A DNA stretch of 64,000 nucleotides. Source: a phage. How positions within the stretch are numbered: the stretch's first letter is position 1; each line of letters begins with the position of its first letter. Below the pieces are notes generated by a model. It was not told the origin of the DNA and made no database searches. It worked only from the letters and a program-made list of their open reading frames with translations. The stretch is taken from the NCBI GenBank assembly GCA_020279385.1, contig GCA_020279385.1_4762.2; one strand, given 5' to 3'. The position numbers and the translations under genes were made by a program. Below are positions 6,401-11,888 of this stretch, in pieces.

Positions 6401-7239
6401 CGCTTACCAACAATTTCTTTTACCCCGAAAGTACCGATCGATTGTTCTTGTGCACCTTCATGCACTTTTACCGTAACATGGTTGGTTGCAGTCAATCCGT
6501 CAAGATCGGTAGTCTGGATCATATCACCGTTATTAGCAAACTTAGGAAGCATCAAAACAATGTTACCCAAAGAACTACGGCGGAATACCTGATCACCGTT
6601 TTGCATCTGGATCGGGTCGATAGATGGTTGTGCATATACCCCGCGTGGCTCCGTTCCCGTCTGGTAAACGTGCCAGCGATTGCGAACAAAAATGAAGTAG
6701 TTCATTGCATAAGGGGTAGTACAGTACCATTTGCGGTTGTTTACCACACCGTTATGATAGAACTCATGACCAGCCGCAAGGAACGATAACTCATTAACAC
6801 CGCACTTGCCACCGATATCTTTTACTGTTATAGTGTCGCCCTCTGCCGGATTAGTAGGCATTGAGAATGTCAAGTTTGCAAACTGACAGTCCGCTGCGAT
6901 ATAGTCACCGGACTTTAAAGGAGTATCGCCGGAAGTTGCTGCAACATAATCCCAACGTGGGTCCGTGCGCAGTGCTTGCCATTTAGTCGGGTCAAAGTCA
7001 CCTGCTGGTTTTGCGATATCTTCTTTTGCATAATACGGACGGTTTTGATAGATTGTAGTGCCGTATTGATCATAACCGCGAGTTGTGTCATACTGAGTAA
7101 TACCATTATGGTAATTGAAAAATTCAACGTTGACCGCATCGGTGTTGACATTCTTATCAGCCAATGCTACATTGACGACCTTTTCATTACCAGCGTCAAA
7201 GCCAAATGTGGCCTTGAAATGTTGAGAAAAATCTGCCAT
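3499..7239 (-). CDS. 34: Long tail fibre proximal subunit gp34
   Basis: 1246 aa; N-terminus (...VVNVALADKNVNTDAVNV...YDTTRGY) and C-terminus (IRDWIKVGNVKII...VDFIWED) match T4 gp34 as recalled. Confidence 0.93.
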   Translation of the reverse strand: MADFSQHFKATFGFDAGNEKVVNVALADKNVNTDAVNVEFFNYHNGITQYDTTRGYDQYGTTIYQNRPYYAKEDIAKPAGDFDPTKWQALRTDPRWDYVAATSGDTPLKSGDYIAADCQFANLTFSMPTNPAEGDTITVKDIGGKCGVNELSFLAAGHEFYHNGVVNNRKWYCTTPYAMNYFIFVRNRWHVYQTGTEPRGVYAQPSIDPIQMQNGDQVFRRSSLGNIVLMLPKFANNGDMIQTTDLDGLTATNHVTVKVHEGAQEQSIGTFGVKEIVGKRSGHGVFIFDKPENLWRLWDGDQSVRLNPIISDTRLSPNSYVAVFGERDVTLTLPTNVEPGDRIQVSMQYMHGNQNCRIITATEDTKILIQKNMVQFPKRSEYPFNGTDTWTGVSELSFNAANDYVPYLEFSYSEGDDGKKYWLVAHAHPIVERVDPTRKDRVGVIALATQDETNKNHEDNPSDEVAVTPKVLANKTANETRRGIARIATQAETHQDTGSSFLDDVIVTPKKLNDCVATEARRGVMEIATQQETNEGLDDTRAITPKKLEERRASEDLAGIAEIVQAGGSAAARRGEAGTGIYNINDHVKIVTPQNINEVKATETSRGVGYLATDAEVQGATESTPQDALLITTRTLTKRTATESRTGIAEIATQEETNLGQSDNHIITPKKLHTRRATETLHGLAEIATQPEFDAGLDDARISTPLKIKTFFENAQRLKVDPTQGLNLTGDLWQGIMISGLDATEDTKGVAKVATTQLTDAGEDDATIITPKKLQGKKATEGKEGIIRVGTQAETVAGTLANVAISPKNFKYVVQTEDTWKATEARRGFLKVATQENCFVGDNLQGSTQELGNYQHDGIAVTPKGLNYALANFLPKMATAQNSLKLGDVEAAKWARRDIDQTIESNYTFNKNVNVKGDLECLKSGSFETLFVTKNSTDDPSNGHLVLGERGVDGHTGITLHGATASEGMENSWSIIVGGTGTSQVVDSNAIAFGKINDGGLVEHYAFAMEHNGDATAYRDFIAGRNLYAKQGGLYIVDQSNPAMTRSPDGMLNIGHGGSVNIKAGYQTLTTEIAGQKYQIVHAGNADEVLNRQFVKNAGDTMTGKLIMDNASIVSVKHEAIATTAPAIGNIGFWNMRVTTQNIKETYPEKKNGTLMQWGTDENGLTQIWSPDGTHKHYIRSGTDGQWTAWGEIYTKQNKPTAQEIGAVVAEGGLMNSMTVRDWIKVGNVKIIANNLTRTVDFIWED

Positions 7240-7267
7240 TATTGGGTCTCCTTTTATAGTATGTTCA

Positions 7268-7275
7268 TATTTATA
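7268..7275 (-). promoter_or_regulatory. T4-type late promoter (TATAAATA) for gene 34
   Basis: Exact TATAAATA on minus strand 29 nt upstream of the gp34 ATG. Confidence 0.5.
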
Positions 7276-7313
7276 AAATAAGGCTTGATAGAAACAAAAG
7301 AGGATGATATATT

Positions 7314-7499
7314 ATGGTTAAATTTGATTTGTCAGAAGGTGCAAAATGGATAGTTGACAGAATACCTGATAAGGATTATAATTATTTTCGCGCAGAACTA
7401 AACAATGCAATTCTGCGAGTTATGGAGAAATACGGGTATGATCGTGAAGTATCTAGCTCGTTTGATGAGTCTGTTGTTGTGAGAGTGGAGAGAACTTAA
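7314..7499 (+). CDS. Hypothetical small protein (61 aa)
   Basis: ORF just upstream of rnh, separated from its ATG by 2 nt; no recognisable motif. Confidence 0.4.
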   Translation: MVKFDLSEGAKWIVDRIPDKDYNYFRAELNNAILRVMEKYGYDREVSSSFDESVVVRVERT

Positions 7500-7501
7500 T
7501 T

Positions 7502-8449
7502 ATGACGTATAACCCGTTTACAAAAACTACCGCTACACTTAATGATTTCTTCGATGCTCCAGAAGATAAACTGCCGGAAGGTGTGCATTTGATTGATATG
7601 TCGCAGCTTATGATTGCTACTATCTCGCATACCTTTAAACCGGAAGACCCTATTAGTGAAGGCATGATCCGTCATCTTATTCTTGACACCATGCGTTATA
7701 ATATGACAAAATTCAAAGAGCAATACCCAATTACGGTACTTGCCTTTGATTCAAGCAAAGGTTACTGGCGACGTGATATCGCCCCTTACTATAAACGCAA
7801 CCGTAAGGAAAAACGAGACGCAGATCCGCGTGATTGGGAGATGATCTTTGCTGCGATCAATAAGATCACCGAAGAGTTTAAAGAGAACATGCCTTATCAC
7901 GTTATTAAGGTTGACAAAGTTGAAGCGGATGATATAATCGCTGTGTTAACTAAAAAGTTTTCTGTAGAAGGTCGCCAGGTGCTAATCAACTCCGGCGATG
8001 GTGACTACACACAGTTGCACAAATACAAAAACGTGAAACAGTGGGCGCCAGTACAGAAAGCATGGAAGAAATGCAAATATGGTAGCCCTTACAAAGACCT
8101 TATGGTAAAATGTGTTAAGGGTGACGCAAAAGACGGTGTAGCTTCGATCAAGTGCCGTAGTGATTTCATTATCTCACGACTGGAAGGAGAACGAGCTAAA
8201 CCAATTGCAACCAAATGGTTAGAGCAAATTTTCGATGCCGAAGATCCAAAGTCTTTGATGACAGAGGAAGAAGCACGACGCTTTGACGAAAACCGCGAAC
8301 TTATTGATTTTGAATTTATTCCTGATAACATCGAATATGAAATTTTGTTAGCATGGGAAAAATCTAAACCAGCACCACGCGGTAAAATTTATAACTATTT
8401 TGTAACAAATGCGTTAGTTAAAATGTTGCAGAAAATTGGTGAGTTCTAA
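7502..8449 (+). CDS. rnh: RNase H (5'-3' exonuclease, FEN family)
   Basis: 315 aa; GYWRRDIAPYYKRNR, ADDIIAVL, GDGDYTQLHKY, IYNYFV blocks match T4 RNase H as recalled. Confidence 0.9.
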   Translation: MTYNPFTKTTATLNDFFDAPEDKLPEGVHLIDMSQLMIATISHTFKPEDPISEGMIRHLILDTMRYNMTKFKEQYPITVLAFDSSKGYWRRDIAPYYKRNRKEKRDADPRDWEMIFAAINKITEEFKENMPYHVIKVDKVEADDIIAVLTKKFSVEGRQVLINSGDGDYTQLHKYKNVKQWAPVQKAWKKCKYGSPYKDLMVKCVKGDAKDGVASIKCRSDFIISRLEGERAKPIATKWLEQIFDAEDPKSLMTEEEARRFDENRELIDFEFIPDNIEYEILLAWEKSKPAPRGKIYNYFVTNALVKMLQKIGEF

Positions 8450-8459
8450 GGGTTGACAT

Positions 8460-9056
8460 ATGAAAGAACTTGAATTAAAATACTATGCACACTCACAAAT
8501 TGGCGTCGAAACAATCTGTGATTTGTGGGTAGCAATGTATGACGGGTACAATATCGTAGATCATGCTAACACACTAAAACACGAATTTTATTATGATACC
8601 GAAGAACATGCACTGCGTCGAAAAGGAATTTATGCTCGACTTGACGTTAATAGATCATTGATCATGGTCAAAATAGGTGATGGTGAATCTGGACTATTCA
8701 ACCGAGAAGAAATTACTTTTTCAACAATGGATGATTTTTATCACTATGTTGATAGTCTAGGCGTAAACTCCGACCTTATCGTTCCTTTATTGCAAGTAAT
8801 GACATACCGCAAGTCATTGACACTTGACCTTGAGGGTGCTATAGTGGAAATGTGCAAAGACACTTTATATTATTGCAAAGTCGGTGAAGGGATGGGCGAT
8901 GCTCACTATGAACTTGAGTTCGAGTTAAAATCAGGTGACGAAAAAGCACTTGACATTATCCGAGAAATGATGCTAAAATATGTTGGTGACGATTTACGTC
9001 CTAGCGAAATCTCAAAAGCTGAACGTGGTTTTCAATTAATGACTAAAGAGGGTTAA
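8460..9056 (+). CDS. CYTH-like protein (class IV adenylyl cyclase / triphosphate tunnel metalloenzyme-like)
   Basis: 198 aa; N-terminal ExExK (MKELELKYY) and C-terminal acidic YELEFELK patch typical of CYTH domains; not present between rnh and dsbA in T4 as far as I recall. Confidence 0.5.
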   Translation: MKELELKYYAHSQIGVETICDLWVAMYDGYNIVDHANTLKHEFYYDTEEHALRRKGIYARLDVNRSLIMVKIGDGESGLFNREEITFSTMDDFYHYVDSLGVNSDLIVPLLQVMTYRKSLTLDLEGAIVEMCKDTLYYCKVGEGMGDAHYELEFELKSGDEKALDIIREMMLKYVGDDLRPSEISKAERGFQLMTKEG

Positions 9057-9060
9057 TATT

Positions 9061-9336
9061 ATGACTGAACAGAAAAAAGAAAAAGTAGTATTTGATGAAG
9101 CAGTACACGGAAATACCCTGGCACAACTGATTAAAGAAGCCAGCGATCAGAAAACCATTCAAGAAGCATATGGCGATAAGATCAAAGAGATCAAACAGCG
9201 TGCTAAAGAAGAATTAGGCGTAGATGGTAAAATGTGGGGCATTCTGTTTAAACTGTATCACCAGCAACAGCGCGAAACCTTCGAAGCAGAACGCGACGAA
9301 GCGGTAGAACTCTATGATCGGGTGTTCAATGCTTAA
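9061..9336 (+). CDS. dsbA: dsDNA-binding late-transcription protein DsbA
   Basis: 91 aa, lysine/glutamate-rich; size and position (rnh-dsbA-33) as in T4. Confidence 0.7.
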   Translation: MTEQKKEKVVFDEAVHGNTLAQLIKEASDQKTIQEAYGDKIKEIKQRAKEELGVDGKMWGILFKLYHQQQRETFEAERDEAVELYDRVFNA

Positions 9337-9583
9337 TGAACATGCGGTAAAAGCCGCAAACAAAACAGCAAACGGTCTTGCAATCGAAAAACTGGTTGTT
9401 GAAGAGGGATTGACTTATCTTGAAGCGACAACGCAGTTTGTAGAGGAAAACTCTATCGAATATGGTCACTATCAGAAGTATATTCCGGTGTCCATTATTG
9501 ACAAGATCACACAAGAATGTATAGTAAATAGAACGCTCAGGAAGGGAGTGATCGACGAACCGACCAACACTCTCGATATTTAA
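9314..9583 (+). CDS. 33: Late transcription co-activator gp33
   Basis: LTYLEATTQFVEENSI and C-terminal TNTLDI match T4 gp33 as recalled; start could be 9314 or 9329. Confidence 0.75.
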   Translation: MIGCSMLNEHAVKAANKTANGLAIEKLVVEEGLTYLEATTQFVEENSIEYGHYQKYIPVSIIDKITQECIVNRTLRKGVIDEPTNTLDI

Positions 9584-9592
9584 GGGGTATGT

Positions 9593-10270
9593 ATGATCAG
9601 AAACCGTCTTCCTCCAGATCCAGATATGCGAATTAATGCTAAATCTGTGTATATGTTATATTGCATGATGAAAGCTCATATGAACGGGCGTTATGATTGC
9701 GTAAAATATAATTGGAGGATGCGGTTGTCTGATGCCGCATTCAATAAACGCAGAGATAAGTATTATTTCGCAAAATTAGCGGAAAAGTACAATCTAAGAG
9801 AATTATACTTCTTATTCCTAAGCAATCTGGTAGCCAATACCGATGCATGGGTAGGTGAAATCACCGATGTTGACGCATACGGCTTTTATATGGAATACAT
9901 AGGAAAGATAACTGATGCAGCAACACGATTTGACGATGACATTAAAAGTCTGGTATACTTCTCAGAGAAACGCGGGGTTACTCTTAAAGAGCTAATTACA
10001 TACAATCCCGCAACCGAAACTAGCGGTATCTTTAAACTACTGCAAAATCGGATTATATCGTTTGAGTCGTTTATGTTGTTAGATAGCTTTCTAAATATAA
10101 TCGACGAACACGATAAGGTAGCCAAAGACTTGATTTGGCAAACTTATAGTGTTAAAATGAAGGCGTACAAGAAACTACTTGTTATTGACGCCGCAAAAGC
10201 AAGAGCATTATTTGTTAAAGTAGTTAAAGAGTGTAAAGAAATATCGAGGTTAAAAGGTGAAAACATATGA
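9593..10270 (+). CDS. 59: gp59 helicase loader
   Basis: 225 aa; KSVYMLYCMMKAHMNGRYDCVKYNWRMRLSDAAFNKRRDKYYF... closely matches T4 gp59 as recalled. Confidence 0.9.
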   Translation: MIRNRLPPDPDMRINAKSVYMLYCMMKAHMNGRYDCVKYNWRMRLSDAAFNKRRDKYYFAKLAEKYNLRELYFLFLSNLVANTDAWVGEITDVDAYGFYMEYIGKITDAATRFDDDIKSLVYFSEKRGVTLKELITYNPATETSGIFKLLQNRIISFESFMLLDSFLNIIDEHDKVAKDLIWQTYSVKMKAYKKLLVIDAAKARALFVKVVKECKEISRLKGENI

Positions 10271-10853
10271 TCCTGAATTGTATGCTCGTTGTCATGAACT
10301 CTTTAAATATGATAACGGTAAGCTGATTCGCAAGATATCGACAAACCGAAAGCATAAAGTCGGATCTAGAGCGGGTGGAGTTAATCCTAGTCATGGATAC
10401 AGATTGGTGTGTATCGATGGTAAACATCATAAAGAGCATAGAATAATTTTCTTTATGCATCATGGATACATGCCAAAATACGTTGACCATGTTAACCGAA
10501 TTATAACAGATAATCGGATTGAAAACTTGAGAGATGCGAACGAGCAACAAAACTCAAGAAATATGGGTAAACAGAAAGGTCGATCGTCTGAATATATCGG
10601 TGTTAGTCTTTATAAACGAGATGGTAAATATGTTGCCAATATTCAGGTCGAAAGAAAGAAGTTGATATATTTGGGAATATATGTTCATGAGAAAGCGGCA
10701 GCACTTGCGAGAAACTTTGTTGCTGATGCTATAGACCCAAACTTTTTCAACAAAACAGAAGTAGTTGACATTTCTCCCGAAGAGATGTTAGAATTTGAAA
10801 ATAGAAAGCCAAAACTGTTAGATATAATTGATAAAGTATTGACAAGCAATTAA
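10257..10853 (+). CDS. HNH homing endonuclease with AP2-type DNA-binding domain (free-standing, inserted between 59 and 32)
   Basis: GTG start overlapping gp59 end; HNH_3-like GYRLVCIDGKHHKEHRIIF...VDHVNRIITDNRIENLR; AP2-like SEYIGVSLYKRDGKYVANIQ...GIYVHEKAAALA. Confidence 0.8.
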   Translation: MKTYDPELYARCHELFKYDNGKLIRKISTNRKHKVGSRAGGVNPSHGYRLVCIDGKHHKEHRIIFFMHHGYMPKYVDHVNRIITDNRIENLRDANEQQNSRNMGKQKGRSSEYIGVSLYKRDGKYVANIQVERKKLIYLGIYVHEKAAALARNFVADAIDPNFFNKTEVVDISPEEMLEFENRKPKLLDIIDKVLTSN

Positions 10854-10913
10854 GTATCTGATATAGTATAAAACGTAAATTAATCAATAGTTAATGTATA
10901 AAGAGGTATAATT

Positions 10914-11888
10914 ATGAACATGTTTCGTCGTCAAGATAGCTCCAAACTGCAAGCTCAACTGGCCGCACTGAAAGGTGGCAACGGTTTCTCCAAAGAAGAT
11001 CCGAAAGAGTGGAAGATTAAGACTGATGCAGCAGGTAACGGTGAAGCCCTGATTCGCTTCCTGCCGTCTAAGACAGAAGACGGTCTGCCGATTGTGAAAC
11101 TGGTAAACCATTCCTTCAAAGTTAATGGTAAATGGTATTGGGAAAACTGCTCCAGCACCCACGGTGATTTTGATTCTTGCCCTGTGTGCAAATATATTAA
11201 CGAAAAAGATCTGTACAATACCGATAAAACCGAATGGCAACTGATTAAGCGTAAAGCGTCTTACTACGCAAATATTCTGGTACTGAAAGATCCTCAAGCA
11301 CCAGAAAATGAAGGTAAGGTATTCAAATTCCGCTTCGGTCAGAAAATTTATGATAAGATCGTTGCGATGGTGAACGTGAATACCGATATGGGCGAAGTTC
11401 CGGTAGATGTAACTTGTGTGTTCTCCGGTGCTAACTTCCTCCTGAAAGCTAAGAAGGTTGATAAACACCAGAACTATGATGATTCTCGTTTCATGCAGCA
11501 ATCACAGCTTCCGAAAATTGAAGACGAAGCATATCAGAAATATCTGATGGAAAACATGGTTGATCTGAGTGAGATTGTAGCGCCTAGCCAGTTTAAACCG
11601 TTCGATGAACTGGAAACCAAATTTAAGAAAACTATGGGCGTTTCTATGGTAGCTGGTGCTGCGGCTTCCAGTGCCGCGGCAGCGATTAACAGCCAGCTTG
11701 ACGATTTTGACGCACAGATGAATGCATTCGATTCTGGTATGACCGCAGCTAGCACTGTAGTTGGTATTAACGCAGCTAGCACGGCGTTAGATTCTTCCGC
11801 TGATGACCTGATGGCATCTCTGGATCTGGGTGGCGGTACTTCCTCCGCTTCTGATCTGGATGACCTGGATTCTCTGTTAGCGATGTAA
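10914..11888 (+). CDS. 32: gp32 single-stranded DNA-binding protein
   Basis: 324 aa; [61 protein letters not shown] match T4 gp32 as recalled; S/A/D-rich C-terminal tail. Confidence 0.95.

What the first reader, a model, noticed from the sequence alone, without database searches (positions are those of the whole stretch)
8460..9056. CYTH-like (class IV adenylyl cyclase / triphosphatase-like) gene between rnh and dsbA
The 198-aa product opens with the ExExK signature (MKELELKYY) and has a C-terminal acidic strand (YELEFELK), both typical of CYTH triphosphate-tunnel enzymes. I do not recall such a gene at this position in T4. A phage-encoded nucleotide cyclase or triphosphatase in the early replication cluster could alter host cyclic-nucleotide signalling or act on a nucleotide substrate.
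Basis: partly seen in the sequence, partly recalled or inferred. Interest (0 to 1): 0.6.

Follow-up and report, generated by a model that had tools for sequence, protein, structure and literature searches.

The report
Phage YgiF-like triphosphatase gene, not a cyclase
The gene between rnh and dsbA in this RB49-like coliphage really does encode a CYTH "triphosphate tunnel" enzyme, most similar to the E. coli inorganic triphosphatase YgiF and not to an adenylyl cyclase; the domain call was already in the RB49 record and literature, and its role in infection is untested.

Summary

All three published sequence signatures of class IV cyclases are absent. All metal ligands and the catalytic arginine of triphosphatases are invariant down to 30% identity. 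The best reading is therefore an early-expressed, metal-dependent triphosphate hydrolase without a CHAD domain.

Three things go beyond the existing annotation:
- The phage clade replaces an arginine found in 142 of 146 cellular relatives with Asp/Asn, and changes several other likely tunnel-facing residues, so its substrate may not be plain triphosphate.
- The gene keeps its rnh-CYTH-dsbA position in relatives down to 34% identity.
- Its middle is about 50% identical in DNA between phages whose flanks are 97-100% identical. These are old alleles swapped by recombination under purifying selection.

The CYTH call is not new: the RB49 GenBank note cites ygiF, Nolan 2006 lists the domain, and some records already say "inorganic triphosphatase". 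Interest is low to moderate.

The parts
8460..9056 (+). CYTH / triphosphate tunnel metalloenzyme gene (198 aa), ortholog of RB49ORF244c
   Evidence: ORF; Pfam CYTH E 4.6e-7 above the curated cut-off; PHROG 14893; 95-97% identical to RB49/JSE-group proteins; AF2 pLDDT 92.8; YgiF is the top structural hit.
8466..8480 (+). Codons 3-7, the ExExK motif (E3, E5 = metal-2 ligands, K7)
   Evidence: Invariant in all phage relatives and in 142-143 of 146 cellular relatives. Corresponds to YgiF Glu-4/Glu-6.
8637..8645 (+). Codons 60-62, R-L-D. R60 is the catalytic arginine. D62 replaces the second arginine of the RxR motif.
   Evidence: A profile of 146 cellular relatives aligns R60 to the first R of RiR. 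Position 62 is R in 142/146 cellular proteins and D/N in the phage clade. The role of YgiF Arg-56 is from PMC4641920.
8910..8930 (+). Codons 151-157, E-L-E-F-E-L-K. E153 is the metal-1 ligand and E155 the metal-2 ligand.
   Evidence: Aligned to YgiF Glu-160/Glu-162. E153 and E155 are present in 145 and 146 of 146 cellular relatives and in all phage relatives.
9012..9029 (+). Codons 185-190, S-K-A-E-R-G, in the C-terminal plug helix shared with YgiF-type CYTH domains
   Evidence: Aligned to YgiF SKAARG. K186 is present in 144/146 and R189 in 128/146 relatives. Model helix 186-195.
8490..8900 (+). Hypervariable allelic cassette (about codons 11-147) inside otherwise near-identical genomes
   Evidence: Window versus phage Skers: 46-65% nt identity here against 97-100% in the flanks. 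Protein identity is 57-58% against 97-100% for the neighbours. dS is 1.0-1.6 here against about 0.1 in the neighbours.
7354..7382 (+). Perfect sigma-70 consensus (TTGACA-17-TATAAT) upstream; candidate early promoter for the rnh-CYTH transcript
   Evidence: Consensus scan, 12/12 match. This is a pattern match only. There is no TATAAATA late promoter on the + strand upstream.
7911..7938 (+). Second perfect sigma-70 consensus, inside rnh; candidate early promoter reading into the CYTH gene
   Evidence: Consensus scan, 12/12 match. Pattern match only.

Best explanation
The gene encodes a stand-alone, catalytically competent triphosphate tunnel metalloenzyme of the YgiF type. By analogy with YgiF and AtTTM3, a triphosphate group sits in the basic centre of an eight-strand tunnel. 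One Mg2+/Mn2+ ion is held by the substrate and E153. A second is held by E3, E5 and E155 and activates a water molecule that attacks the terminal phosphate. R60 assists the leaving group, and the products are a diphosphate plus orthophosphate. The gene is probably transcribed early with rnh from sigma-70-type promoters. It is an accessory gene of Krischvirus and its uncultured relatives and is absent from T4.

What is shown here: the fold, the family, the conserved catalytic set, the absence of cyclase signatures, the conserved gene position and purifying selection. What is inferred: hydrolysis itself, the timing of expression and the substrate. My substrate estimate is inorganic triphosphate or a short polyphosphate (about 40%), or a nucleotide or other organic triphosphate, including an RNA 5' end (about 40%). 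The second option is kept because the clade has changed several likely tunnel-facing residues that its cellular relatives conserve.
For: Family and fold:
- Pfam CYTH matches end to end, above the gathering score.
- A profile of 146 cellular YgiF-like CYTH proteins scores the phage proteins at 66-119 bits.
- The AF2 model has pLDDT 92.8.

Catalytic set:
- E3, E5, K7, R60, K71, R82, E84, R117, E153, E155, K186 and R189 are invariant in phage relatives down to 30% identity.
- The same residues are present in at least 128 of 146 cellular relatives.
- They map to YgiF Glu-4, Glu-6, Arg-56, Lys-69, Glu-160 and Glu-162, whose roles were established by structures and mutagenesis (PMC4641920).

Evolution and context:
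- dN/dS is 0.21-0.36, so the protein is under purifying selection.
- The rnh-CYTH-dsbA order is kept in four further lineages.
- YgiF is a specific Mg2+-dependent triphosphatase (PMC3440374).
- Sigma-70 consensus sites lie upstream and no late promoter does.
Against: No activity was measured; everything rests on homology at 23% identity to the nearest characterised enzyme. The clade lacks the CHAD domain of YgiF. It also lacks the second arginine of the RxR motif (D62/N62 against R in 142/146 relatives). It differs at other conserved positions as well (T69M, G136F, L40K, A/S/G58Y, I/V138Y, I/L/F149H), so YgiF's strict preference for inorganic triphosphate cannot be transferred to it. NCBIfam has no equivalog model for it. 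Promoters are consensus matches only. No phenotype or biological role is known.
Confidence: 0.72

Rival explanations
1. It is a class IV (CyaB-type) adenylyl or nucleotidyl cyclase that makes cAMP or another cyclic nucleotide and rewires host signalling. Some GenBank records call it 'adenylate cyclase'.
For: It belongs to the same superfamily, and YpCyaB and CyaB-like structures are significant fold hits. Three phage records carry the name 'adenylate cyclase'.
Against: All three signatures that define true class IV cyclases (PMC8233210) fail.
- The HF motif four residues before ExExK cannot exist, because ExExK starts at residue 3 and an in-frame TGA lies at 8454-8456.
- The second Glu of ExE is Glu (E155), not Ala.
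- The first Arg of xRxR is present as R60.
Confidence: 0.04
2. It is a counter-defence enzyme. It would be a hydrolase retargeted to destroy a triphosphate-bearing nucleotide that a host immune or stress system makes or needs, for example (d)ITP, an alarmone or a linear 5'-triphosphate oligonucleotide. Its deeply diverged alleles would be kept by the arms race with the host.
For: - It is an accessory, probably early gene.
- Old alleles (dS 1.0-1.6) are exchanged within backbones whose flanking genes have dS of about 0.1, a pattern typical of host-interaction genes.
- The catalytic core is invariant while the rest diverges.
- Likely tunnel-facing positions are changed, with more aromatic residues and one arginine lost, which fits an organic substrate.
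Against: There is no hit in PADLOC, and no paper links CYTH to anti-defence. dN/dS is below 0.4, with no sign of positive selection in pairwise estimates. Mosaic allele exchange is common for many T4-type accessory genes and does not imply immunity. No candidate target system is identified.
Confidence: 0.12
3. It is a polynucleotide 5'-triphosphatase working with the neighbouring replication genes. It would trim the 5'-ppp end of RNA primers before RNase H removes them, or of transcripts so that they decay faster.
For: The gene lies 10 nt after rnh and has stayed next to it in every relative found. TTM enzymes include viral RNA triphosphatases, and mimivirus, vaccinia and Cet1 enzymes are significant but weaker fold hits.
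Confidence: 0.1
4. It is a catalytically dead binding protein or sponge for polyphosphate or a nucleotide.
For: One substrate-binding arginine is lost. Sponge proteins are a common phage strategy (general knowledge).
Against: Every metal ligand and the catalytic arginine are invariant across relatives down to 30% identity. That is not expected if catalysis were lost.
Confidence: 0.02

Closest known systems
E. coli YgiF inorganic triphosphatase, CYTH domain (PDB 5A60/5A61)
   Different: The phage protein has no CHAD domain (198 aa against 433 aa). The second arginine of RxR is Asp. Several conserved positions that are probably tunnel-facing differ. Substrate specificity is untested.
RB49ORF244c and its Krischvirus orthologs (PHROG 14893)
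   Same: This is the same gene: 81-97% protein identity in 58 Krischvirus records and 58% in Skers, at the same locus. The RB49 record notes similarity to ygiF, Nolan et al. 2006 list a CYTH domain, and a few records say 'inorganic triphosphatase' or 'adenylate cyclase'.
   Different: Nothing of substance. The window carries one allele of the RB49/JSE group. No record or paper reports a function.
Class IV adenylyl cyclases (CyaB of Aeromonas hydrophila, YpAC-IV; PDB 2FJT, 3N0Y)
   Same: Same superfamily and tunnel fold, with a two-metal active site.
Thiamine triphosphatase (mouse/human; PDB 5A64, 3BHD)
   Different: The second Arg is Asp. The aromatic residue is Val or Ile in the deeper phage relatives, so it is not a clade-defining feature.
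Cet1-type viral and fungal RNA 5'-triphosphatases (mimivirus, vaccinia D1, Cet1, Pct1)
   Same: Viral TTM enzymes with acidic strands at both ends of the tunnel.
Other phage CYTH proteins (Aeromonas phages Aeh1, 65.2 and D3; jumbo phages)
   Same: CYTH domains are already known to be scattered among T4-type and jumbo phages.
   Different: These are only remote structural relatives (TM 0.3-0.5) and are not at the rnh-dsbA locus.

Membership tests
CYTH / triphosphate tunnel metalloenzyme superfamily (Pfam PF01928) | Profile match above the curated threshold over the whole domain | tested here: met
   E 4.6e-7, 30.3 bits against a 23.2 cut-off; residues 2-190 on profile positions 2-178 of 179.
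CYTH / triphosphate tunnel metalloenzyme superfamily (Pfam PF01928) | N-terminal ExExK motif | tested here: met
   E3-L-E5-L-K7, invariant in all relatives.
CYTH / triphosphate tunnel metalloenzyme superfamily (Pfam PF01928) | Eight-strand antiparallel tunnel fold | tested here: met
CYTH / triphosphate tunnel metalloenzyme superfamily (Pfam PF01928) | C-terminal ExE metal-binding strand and basic tunnel residues | tested here: met
   E153/E155, R60, K71, R82 and R117 are invariant.
CYTH / triphosphate tunnel metalloenzyme superfamily (Pfam PF01928) | Divalent-cation-dependent action on a triphosphate substrate | not testable with these tools
   Needs an enzyme assay.
Class IV adenylyl cyclase (CyaB / AC-IV) | HF motif four residues before ExExK (HFxxxxExExK) | tested here: not met
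   ExExK starts at residue 3, and an in-frame TGA at 8454-8456 forbids a longer N-terminus. Criterion from PMC8233210.
Class IV adenylyl cyclase (CyaB / AC-IV) | Second Glu of the beta-8 ExE motif replaced by Ala | tested here: not met
   E155 is Glu in all phage relatives and in 146/146 cellular relatives.
Class IV adenylyl cyclase (CyaB / AC-IV) | First Arg of xRxR replaced by a small residue | tested here: not met
   R60 aligns to the first Arg in a 146-sequence profile and in MAFFT. A pairwise HMMER alignment shifts the register by two residues; even in that register the residue would be Tyr, which is not small.
YgiF-type inorganic triphosphatase (CYTH-CHAD) | CYTH domain closest to YgiF, with the SKxxRG plug helix | tested here: met
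YgiF-type inorganic triphosphatase (CYTH-CHAD) | C-terminal CHAD domain | tested here: not met
   The protein ends at residue 198, dsbA starts 4 nt later, and there is no CHAD hit. About 200-aa CYTH-only relatives are common among cellular homologs.
YgiF-type inorganic triphosphatase (CYTH-CHAD) | RxR arginine pair on strand beta-3 | tested here: not met
   The motif is R60-L-D62. Position 62 is R in 142/146 cellular relatives and D/N in the phage clade. In AtTTM3 the second Arg is dispensable for catalysis (PMC4641920).
YgiF-type inorganic triphosphatase (CYTH-CHAD) | Specific hydrolysis of PPPi and not of NTPs | not testable with these tools
   This property of YgiF is from PMC3440374. It needs an assay for the phage protein.
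Thiamine triphosphatase | W/YxRxR motif | tested here: not met
   The motif is Y58-A-R60-L-D62. The second Arg is missing, and Y58 is Val or Ile in the deeper relatives.
Cet1-like RNA 5'-triphosphatase | Match to the mRNA triphosphatase family and close structural similarity | tested here: not met

The most novel reading that the evidence does not exclude
The Krischvirus CYTH protein is a retargeted tunnel enzyme. Its arginine-to-aspartate change at position 62, the new Lys40 and extra aromatic residues (Y9, Y58, F136, Y138, H149) would shift it from inorganic triphosphate to an organic triphosphate. It would destroy a nucleotide that a host defence or stress pathway produces or needs. Its anciently diverged alleles would be maintained and shuffled among near-identical phage genomes because of that conflict. 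That would make it the first CYTH-family anti-defence enzyme.
Probability: 0.1. Interest if true: 0.65.

Novelty: already known. Interest (0 to 1): 0.3.

Why it matters
As a gene call it adds nothing. The CYTH/ygiF similarity of this ORF has been in the RB49 record since 2003 and in print since 2006. The useful results are corrections and leads.
- The 'adenylate cyclase' label in several phage records is very probably wrong, and 'CYTH-family triphosphatase' is the defensible name.
- No CYTH enzyme of a bacteriophage has an assigned biological role, and even E. coli YgiF has no clear physiology. A small, early, dispensable-looking phage enzyme with a fixed locus, an invariant active site and a changed substrate pocket is a tractable entry point.
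- The sharp allelic mosaic marks it as a candidate host-interaction gene worth including in knock-out or defence-panel screens of RB49-like therapeutic phages.

Tried and rejected
- NCBIfam and PADLOC scans gave no hit, even at E up to 10.
- A single-sequence search of the PDB gave only a weak YgiF hit (E 0.025). A profile improved it to 0.0037.
- The two pairwise/profile HMMER alignments to YgiF put Tyr58 opposite the catalytic Arg-56. I rejected that register for three reasons: the spacing from the invariant YYDT motif is ungapped; MAFFT with 21 more distant relatives (20 of them cellular) disagrees with it; and a 146-sequence profile with high posterior support disagrees with it. All three place R60 there, with a two-residue shorter hairpin.
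- Scans of IMG/VR for relatives of P0044 and P0045 found nothing. Exact-sequence look-ups worked instead.
- The afdb50 fold library was unavailable.
- Model coordinates could not be read. Which residues face the tunnel was therefore inferred from strand parity, not measured.
- Seven literature searches found no functional study (CYTH with phage, TTM with bacteriophage, CYTH with defence terms, RB49 with ygiF, Krischvirus with triphosphatase). The search for ygiF with 'triphosphate tunnel' found the enzymology papers used here.
- Recent capture of the host ygiF gene was considered and rejected, because identity is only 23% and the nearest non-phage relatives are an archaeal and a bacterial housekeeping gene.
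- Positive selection was considered and rejected as the cause of the divergence. dS is raised as much as dN, and dN/dS is 0.2-0.36.
- A proximal late promoter was looked for and not found on the + strand.

Full report
**What is there.** The window is a Krischvirus (RB49-like, T4-type coliphage). The 2.3 kb around the finding is 95-98% identical to Ec_Makalu_002, JSE, RB49 and 56 other records. ORF 8460..9056 on the + strand encodes 198 aa, with an ATG start and a TAA stop.

The ORF begins 10 nt after rnh (7502-8449). It ends 4 nt before dsbA (9061-9336), which is followed by gp33, gp59, an HNH/AP2 homing endonuclease and gp32 (Pfam and PHROG assignments). An in-frame TGA at 8454-8456 fixes the N-terminus at MKELELKYY. 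In T4, rnh and dsbA are 8 nt apart with no gene between them, so this gene is an insertion relative to T4.

**Is it CYTH?** Yes.
- Pfam CYTH (PF01928) matches residues 2-190 against profile positions 2-178 of 179, with E 4.6e-7 and 30.3 bits against a gathering score of 23.2.
- An AlphaFold2 model built on 19 homologs has mean pLDDT 92.8 and pTM 0.85, with eight long strands and flanking helices.
- Foldseek against the PDB gives 48 hits at E of 0.001 or better. All 48 have the tunnel fold: most are tunnel enzymes and a few are Mediator Med18/20 subunits. The best is E. coli YgiF (5A60; E 7e-13, TM 0.78, 23% identity).
- By sequence, YgiF is the only significant PDB relative (E 0.0037 with a profile).
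- A profile I built from 146 cellular relatives scores the phage proteins at 66-119 bits. Those relatives were selected with the phage profile, so the score is partly circular, but the alignment is informative.

**Cyclase or hydrolase?** Vogt et al. 2021 (PMC8233210) give three signatures of true class IV cyclases. All three fail here.
- An HF motif four residues before ExExK. This is impossible, because ExExK starts at residue 3.
- Ala in place of the second Glu of the beta-8 ExE motif. Here it is E155.
- A small residue in place of the first Arg of xRxR. Here it is R60.

Martinez et al. 2015 (PMC4641920) established the roles of the YgiF residues. Glu-160 holds metal 1. Glu-4, Glu-6 and Glu-162 hold metal 2, which activates the attacking water. 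Arg-56 is essential, and Lys-69 orients Glu-4. The phage equivalents are E153, E3, E5, E155, R60 and K71. With R82, E84, R117, K186 and R189, these are invariant in phage relatives down to 30% identity. They are also present in at least 128 of the 146 cellular relatives.

One ambiguity needed resolving. Pairwise HMMER alignments to YgiF put Tyr58 opposite Arg-56. Three lines of evidence instead place R60 there, with a hairpin two residues shorter: the ungapped spacing from the invariant YYDT motif, a MAFFT alignment with cellular homologs, and the 146-sequence profile. Either register leaves the cyclase criteria unmet.

I therefore read the protein as a two-metal triphosphate hydrolase. YgiF itself hydrolyses inorganic triphosphate specifically, and does not hydrolyse ATP, GTP, ITP, PPi or long polyphosphate (PMC3440374).

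**How it differs from YgiF.** It has no CHAD domain. More interesting are the differences at positions that its cellular relatives conserve:

| Position | Phage clade | 146 cellular relatives |
|---|---|---|
| 62 | Asp/Asn | Arg in 142 |
| 69 | Met | Thr in 130 |
| 136 | Phe | Gly in 114 |
| 40 | Lys | Leu in 85 |
| 58 | Tyr | Ala/Ser/Gly |
| 138 | Tyr | Ile/Val |
| 149 | His | Ile/Leu/Phe |

By strand parity in the model these positions face the tunnel. That is an inference, because I could not read the coordinates. Losing Arg62 should not abolish catalysis, since the equivalent AtTTM3 R54A mutant stays active. Lys40 on the neighbouring strand may compensate for the lost charge. A pocket with more aromatic residues and a different charge pattern means YgiF's substrate preference cannot simply be transferred. 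A nucleotide or other organic triphosphate remains plausible.

**Distribution and evolution.** The family is narrow.
- There are 43 clusters in a 5.8-billion-protein collection, all at least 45% identical to the query.
- In an exhaustive profile search of 1.84 billion representatives, only three scored below 1e-30. The remaining hits were generic CYTH or CYTH-CHAD proteins.
- Among deposited phages it occurs in 59 records, all Krischvirus (the most divergent, Skers, is also a Krischvirus).
- Every relative whose context I could recover sits between rnh and dsbA. These include metagenomic phages with only 49%, 41% and 34% CYTH identity, where DsbA is 70-82% identical. The nearest non-phage relatives are an archaeal and a bacterial housekeeping gene.

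Within Krischvirus the gene is a sharp mosaic. Against phage Skers, nucleotide identity is 97-100% on both sides but 46-65% across 8490-8900. The first 30 nt and last 150 nt or so of the gene are conserved. Protein identity is 57-58% where RNase H, DsbA, gp33 and gp59 are 97-100%.

Nei-Gojobori estimates give dN/dS of 0.21-0.36 for this gene, against 0-0.15 for most neighbour comparisons. Its dS is 1.0-1.6 for the divergent alleles, against about 0.1 for the flanks. The alleles are therefore old and have been exchanged by recombination. The protein is under purifying selection that is weaker than on its neighbours, and in-place positive selection is not needed to explain the divergence.

**Expression.** Two perfect sigma-70 consensus sites lie upstream on the + strand (7354-7382 and 7911-7938). 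No TATAAATA late promoter lies on that strand. The one at 7268-7275 on the minus strand serves gene 34. Early co-transcription with rnh is thus likely, but it is only inferred.

**Prior knowledge.** The RB49 GenBank entry annotates RB49ORF244c as 'similar to P45267, P30871, HI1598, ygiF'. Nolan et al. 2006 list RB49ORF244c with a Pfam CYTH match (PMC1524935). A few records name it 'inorganic triphosphatase' or 'adenylate cyclase'. Iyer and colleagues note CYTH triphosphatases scattered in jumbo phages (PMC7824862). PHROG 14893 is 'unknown function'. I found no experimental work on it, and no link between CYTH and phage counter-defence.

**Verdict.** The cyclase alternative is rejected, and a YgiF-like triphosphate hydrolase is the best-supported mechanism (confidence about 0.7 for the enzyme class, substrate open). 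The identification itself is already known. The modest additions are the case against the cyclase label, the clade-specific pocket changes, the fixed locus and the allelic mosaic. The most novel reading still open is a counter-defence or otherwise host-directed nucleotide triphosphatase. I give it about 10%.

Noticed in passing
window 10257-10853 (+): An HNH + AP2 homing-endonuclease gene (GTG start) sits between gp59 and gp32 and overlaps the gp59 stop by 14 nt. It is present in Skers, but absent from the RB49, Phi1, JK32, GEC-3S and ECD7 records and from the metagenomic loci L003-L006, where gp59 is followed directly by gp32. It is a mobile insertion that is polymorphic within the genus.
   Followed up: partly
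window 7100-11000 (+ strand): Strong sigma-70 consensus sites are in excess: 25 found against 13.7 +/- 3.9 in shuffles, most on the + strand and many with a perfect TTGACA. Several lie inside coding sequence, including three within or overlapping the CYTH gene (8453-8481, 8817-8845, 8950-8979). The site at 8950-8979 could serve dsbA/gp33.
   Followed up: partly
window 9010-9056; L002 and L013 equivalents: The last 45 nt or so of the CYTH gene (SK[A/G]ERG[F/Y]QLM codons) are nearly identical in DNA, synonymous sites included, even in distant phages whose DsbA is only about 80% identical and whose CYTH is 41-49% identical. This could reflect a DNA- or RNA-level element just upstream of dsbA, or a recombination junction. 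It is unexplained.
   Followed up: no
window 8240-8390 (3' part of rnh): A second, smaller divergent patch (73-79% nt identity to Skers) lies in the C-terminal part of rnh. A 100%-identical island (8390-8489) separates it from the CYTH cassette. It does not track the CYTH allele in L003.
   Followed up: partly
window 7314-7499 (+): A conserved 61-aa ORF lies between gene 34 and rnh (PHROG 3594, unknown function, no Pfam hit). It is 93-97% identical within Krischvirus, but the ORF at the same place in the more distant phage L002 is only 29% identical.
   Followed up: no
protein P0037: One homolog is deposited at NCBI as 'hypothetical protein [Escherichia coli]' on a 163,765-bp contig, which is the size of a Krischvirus genome.
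   Followed up: no
L015 3797-5606: The closest archaeal relative (P0046) lies directly after a PRK-family (uridine kinase/phosphoribulokinase-like) gene. This resembles the kinase-TTM fusion of plant TTM1/2 (the comparison with the plant proteins is from PMC8233210).
   Followed up: no
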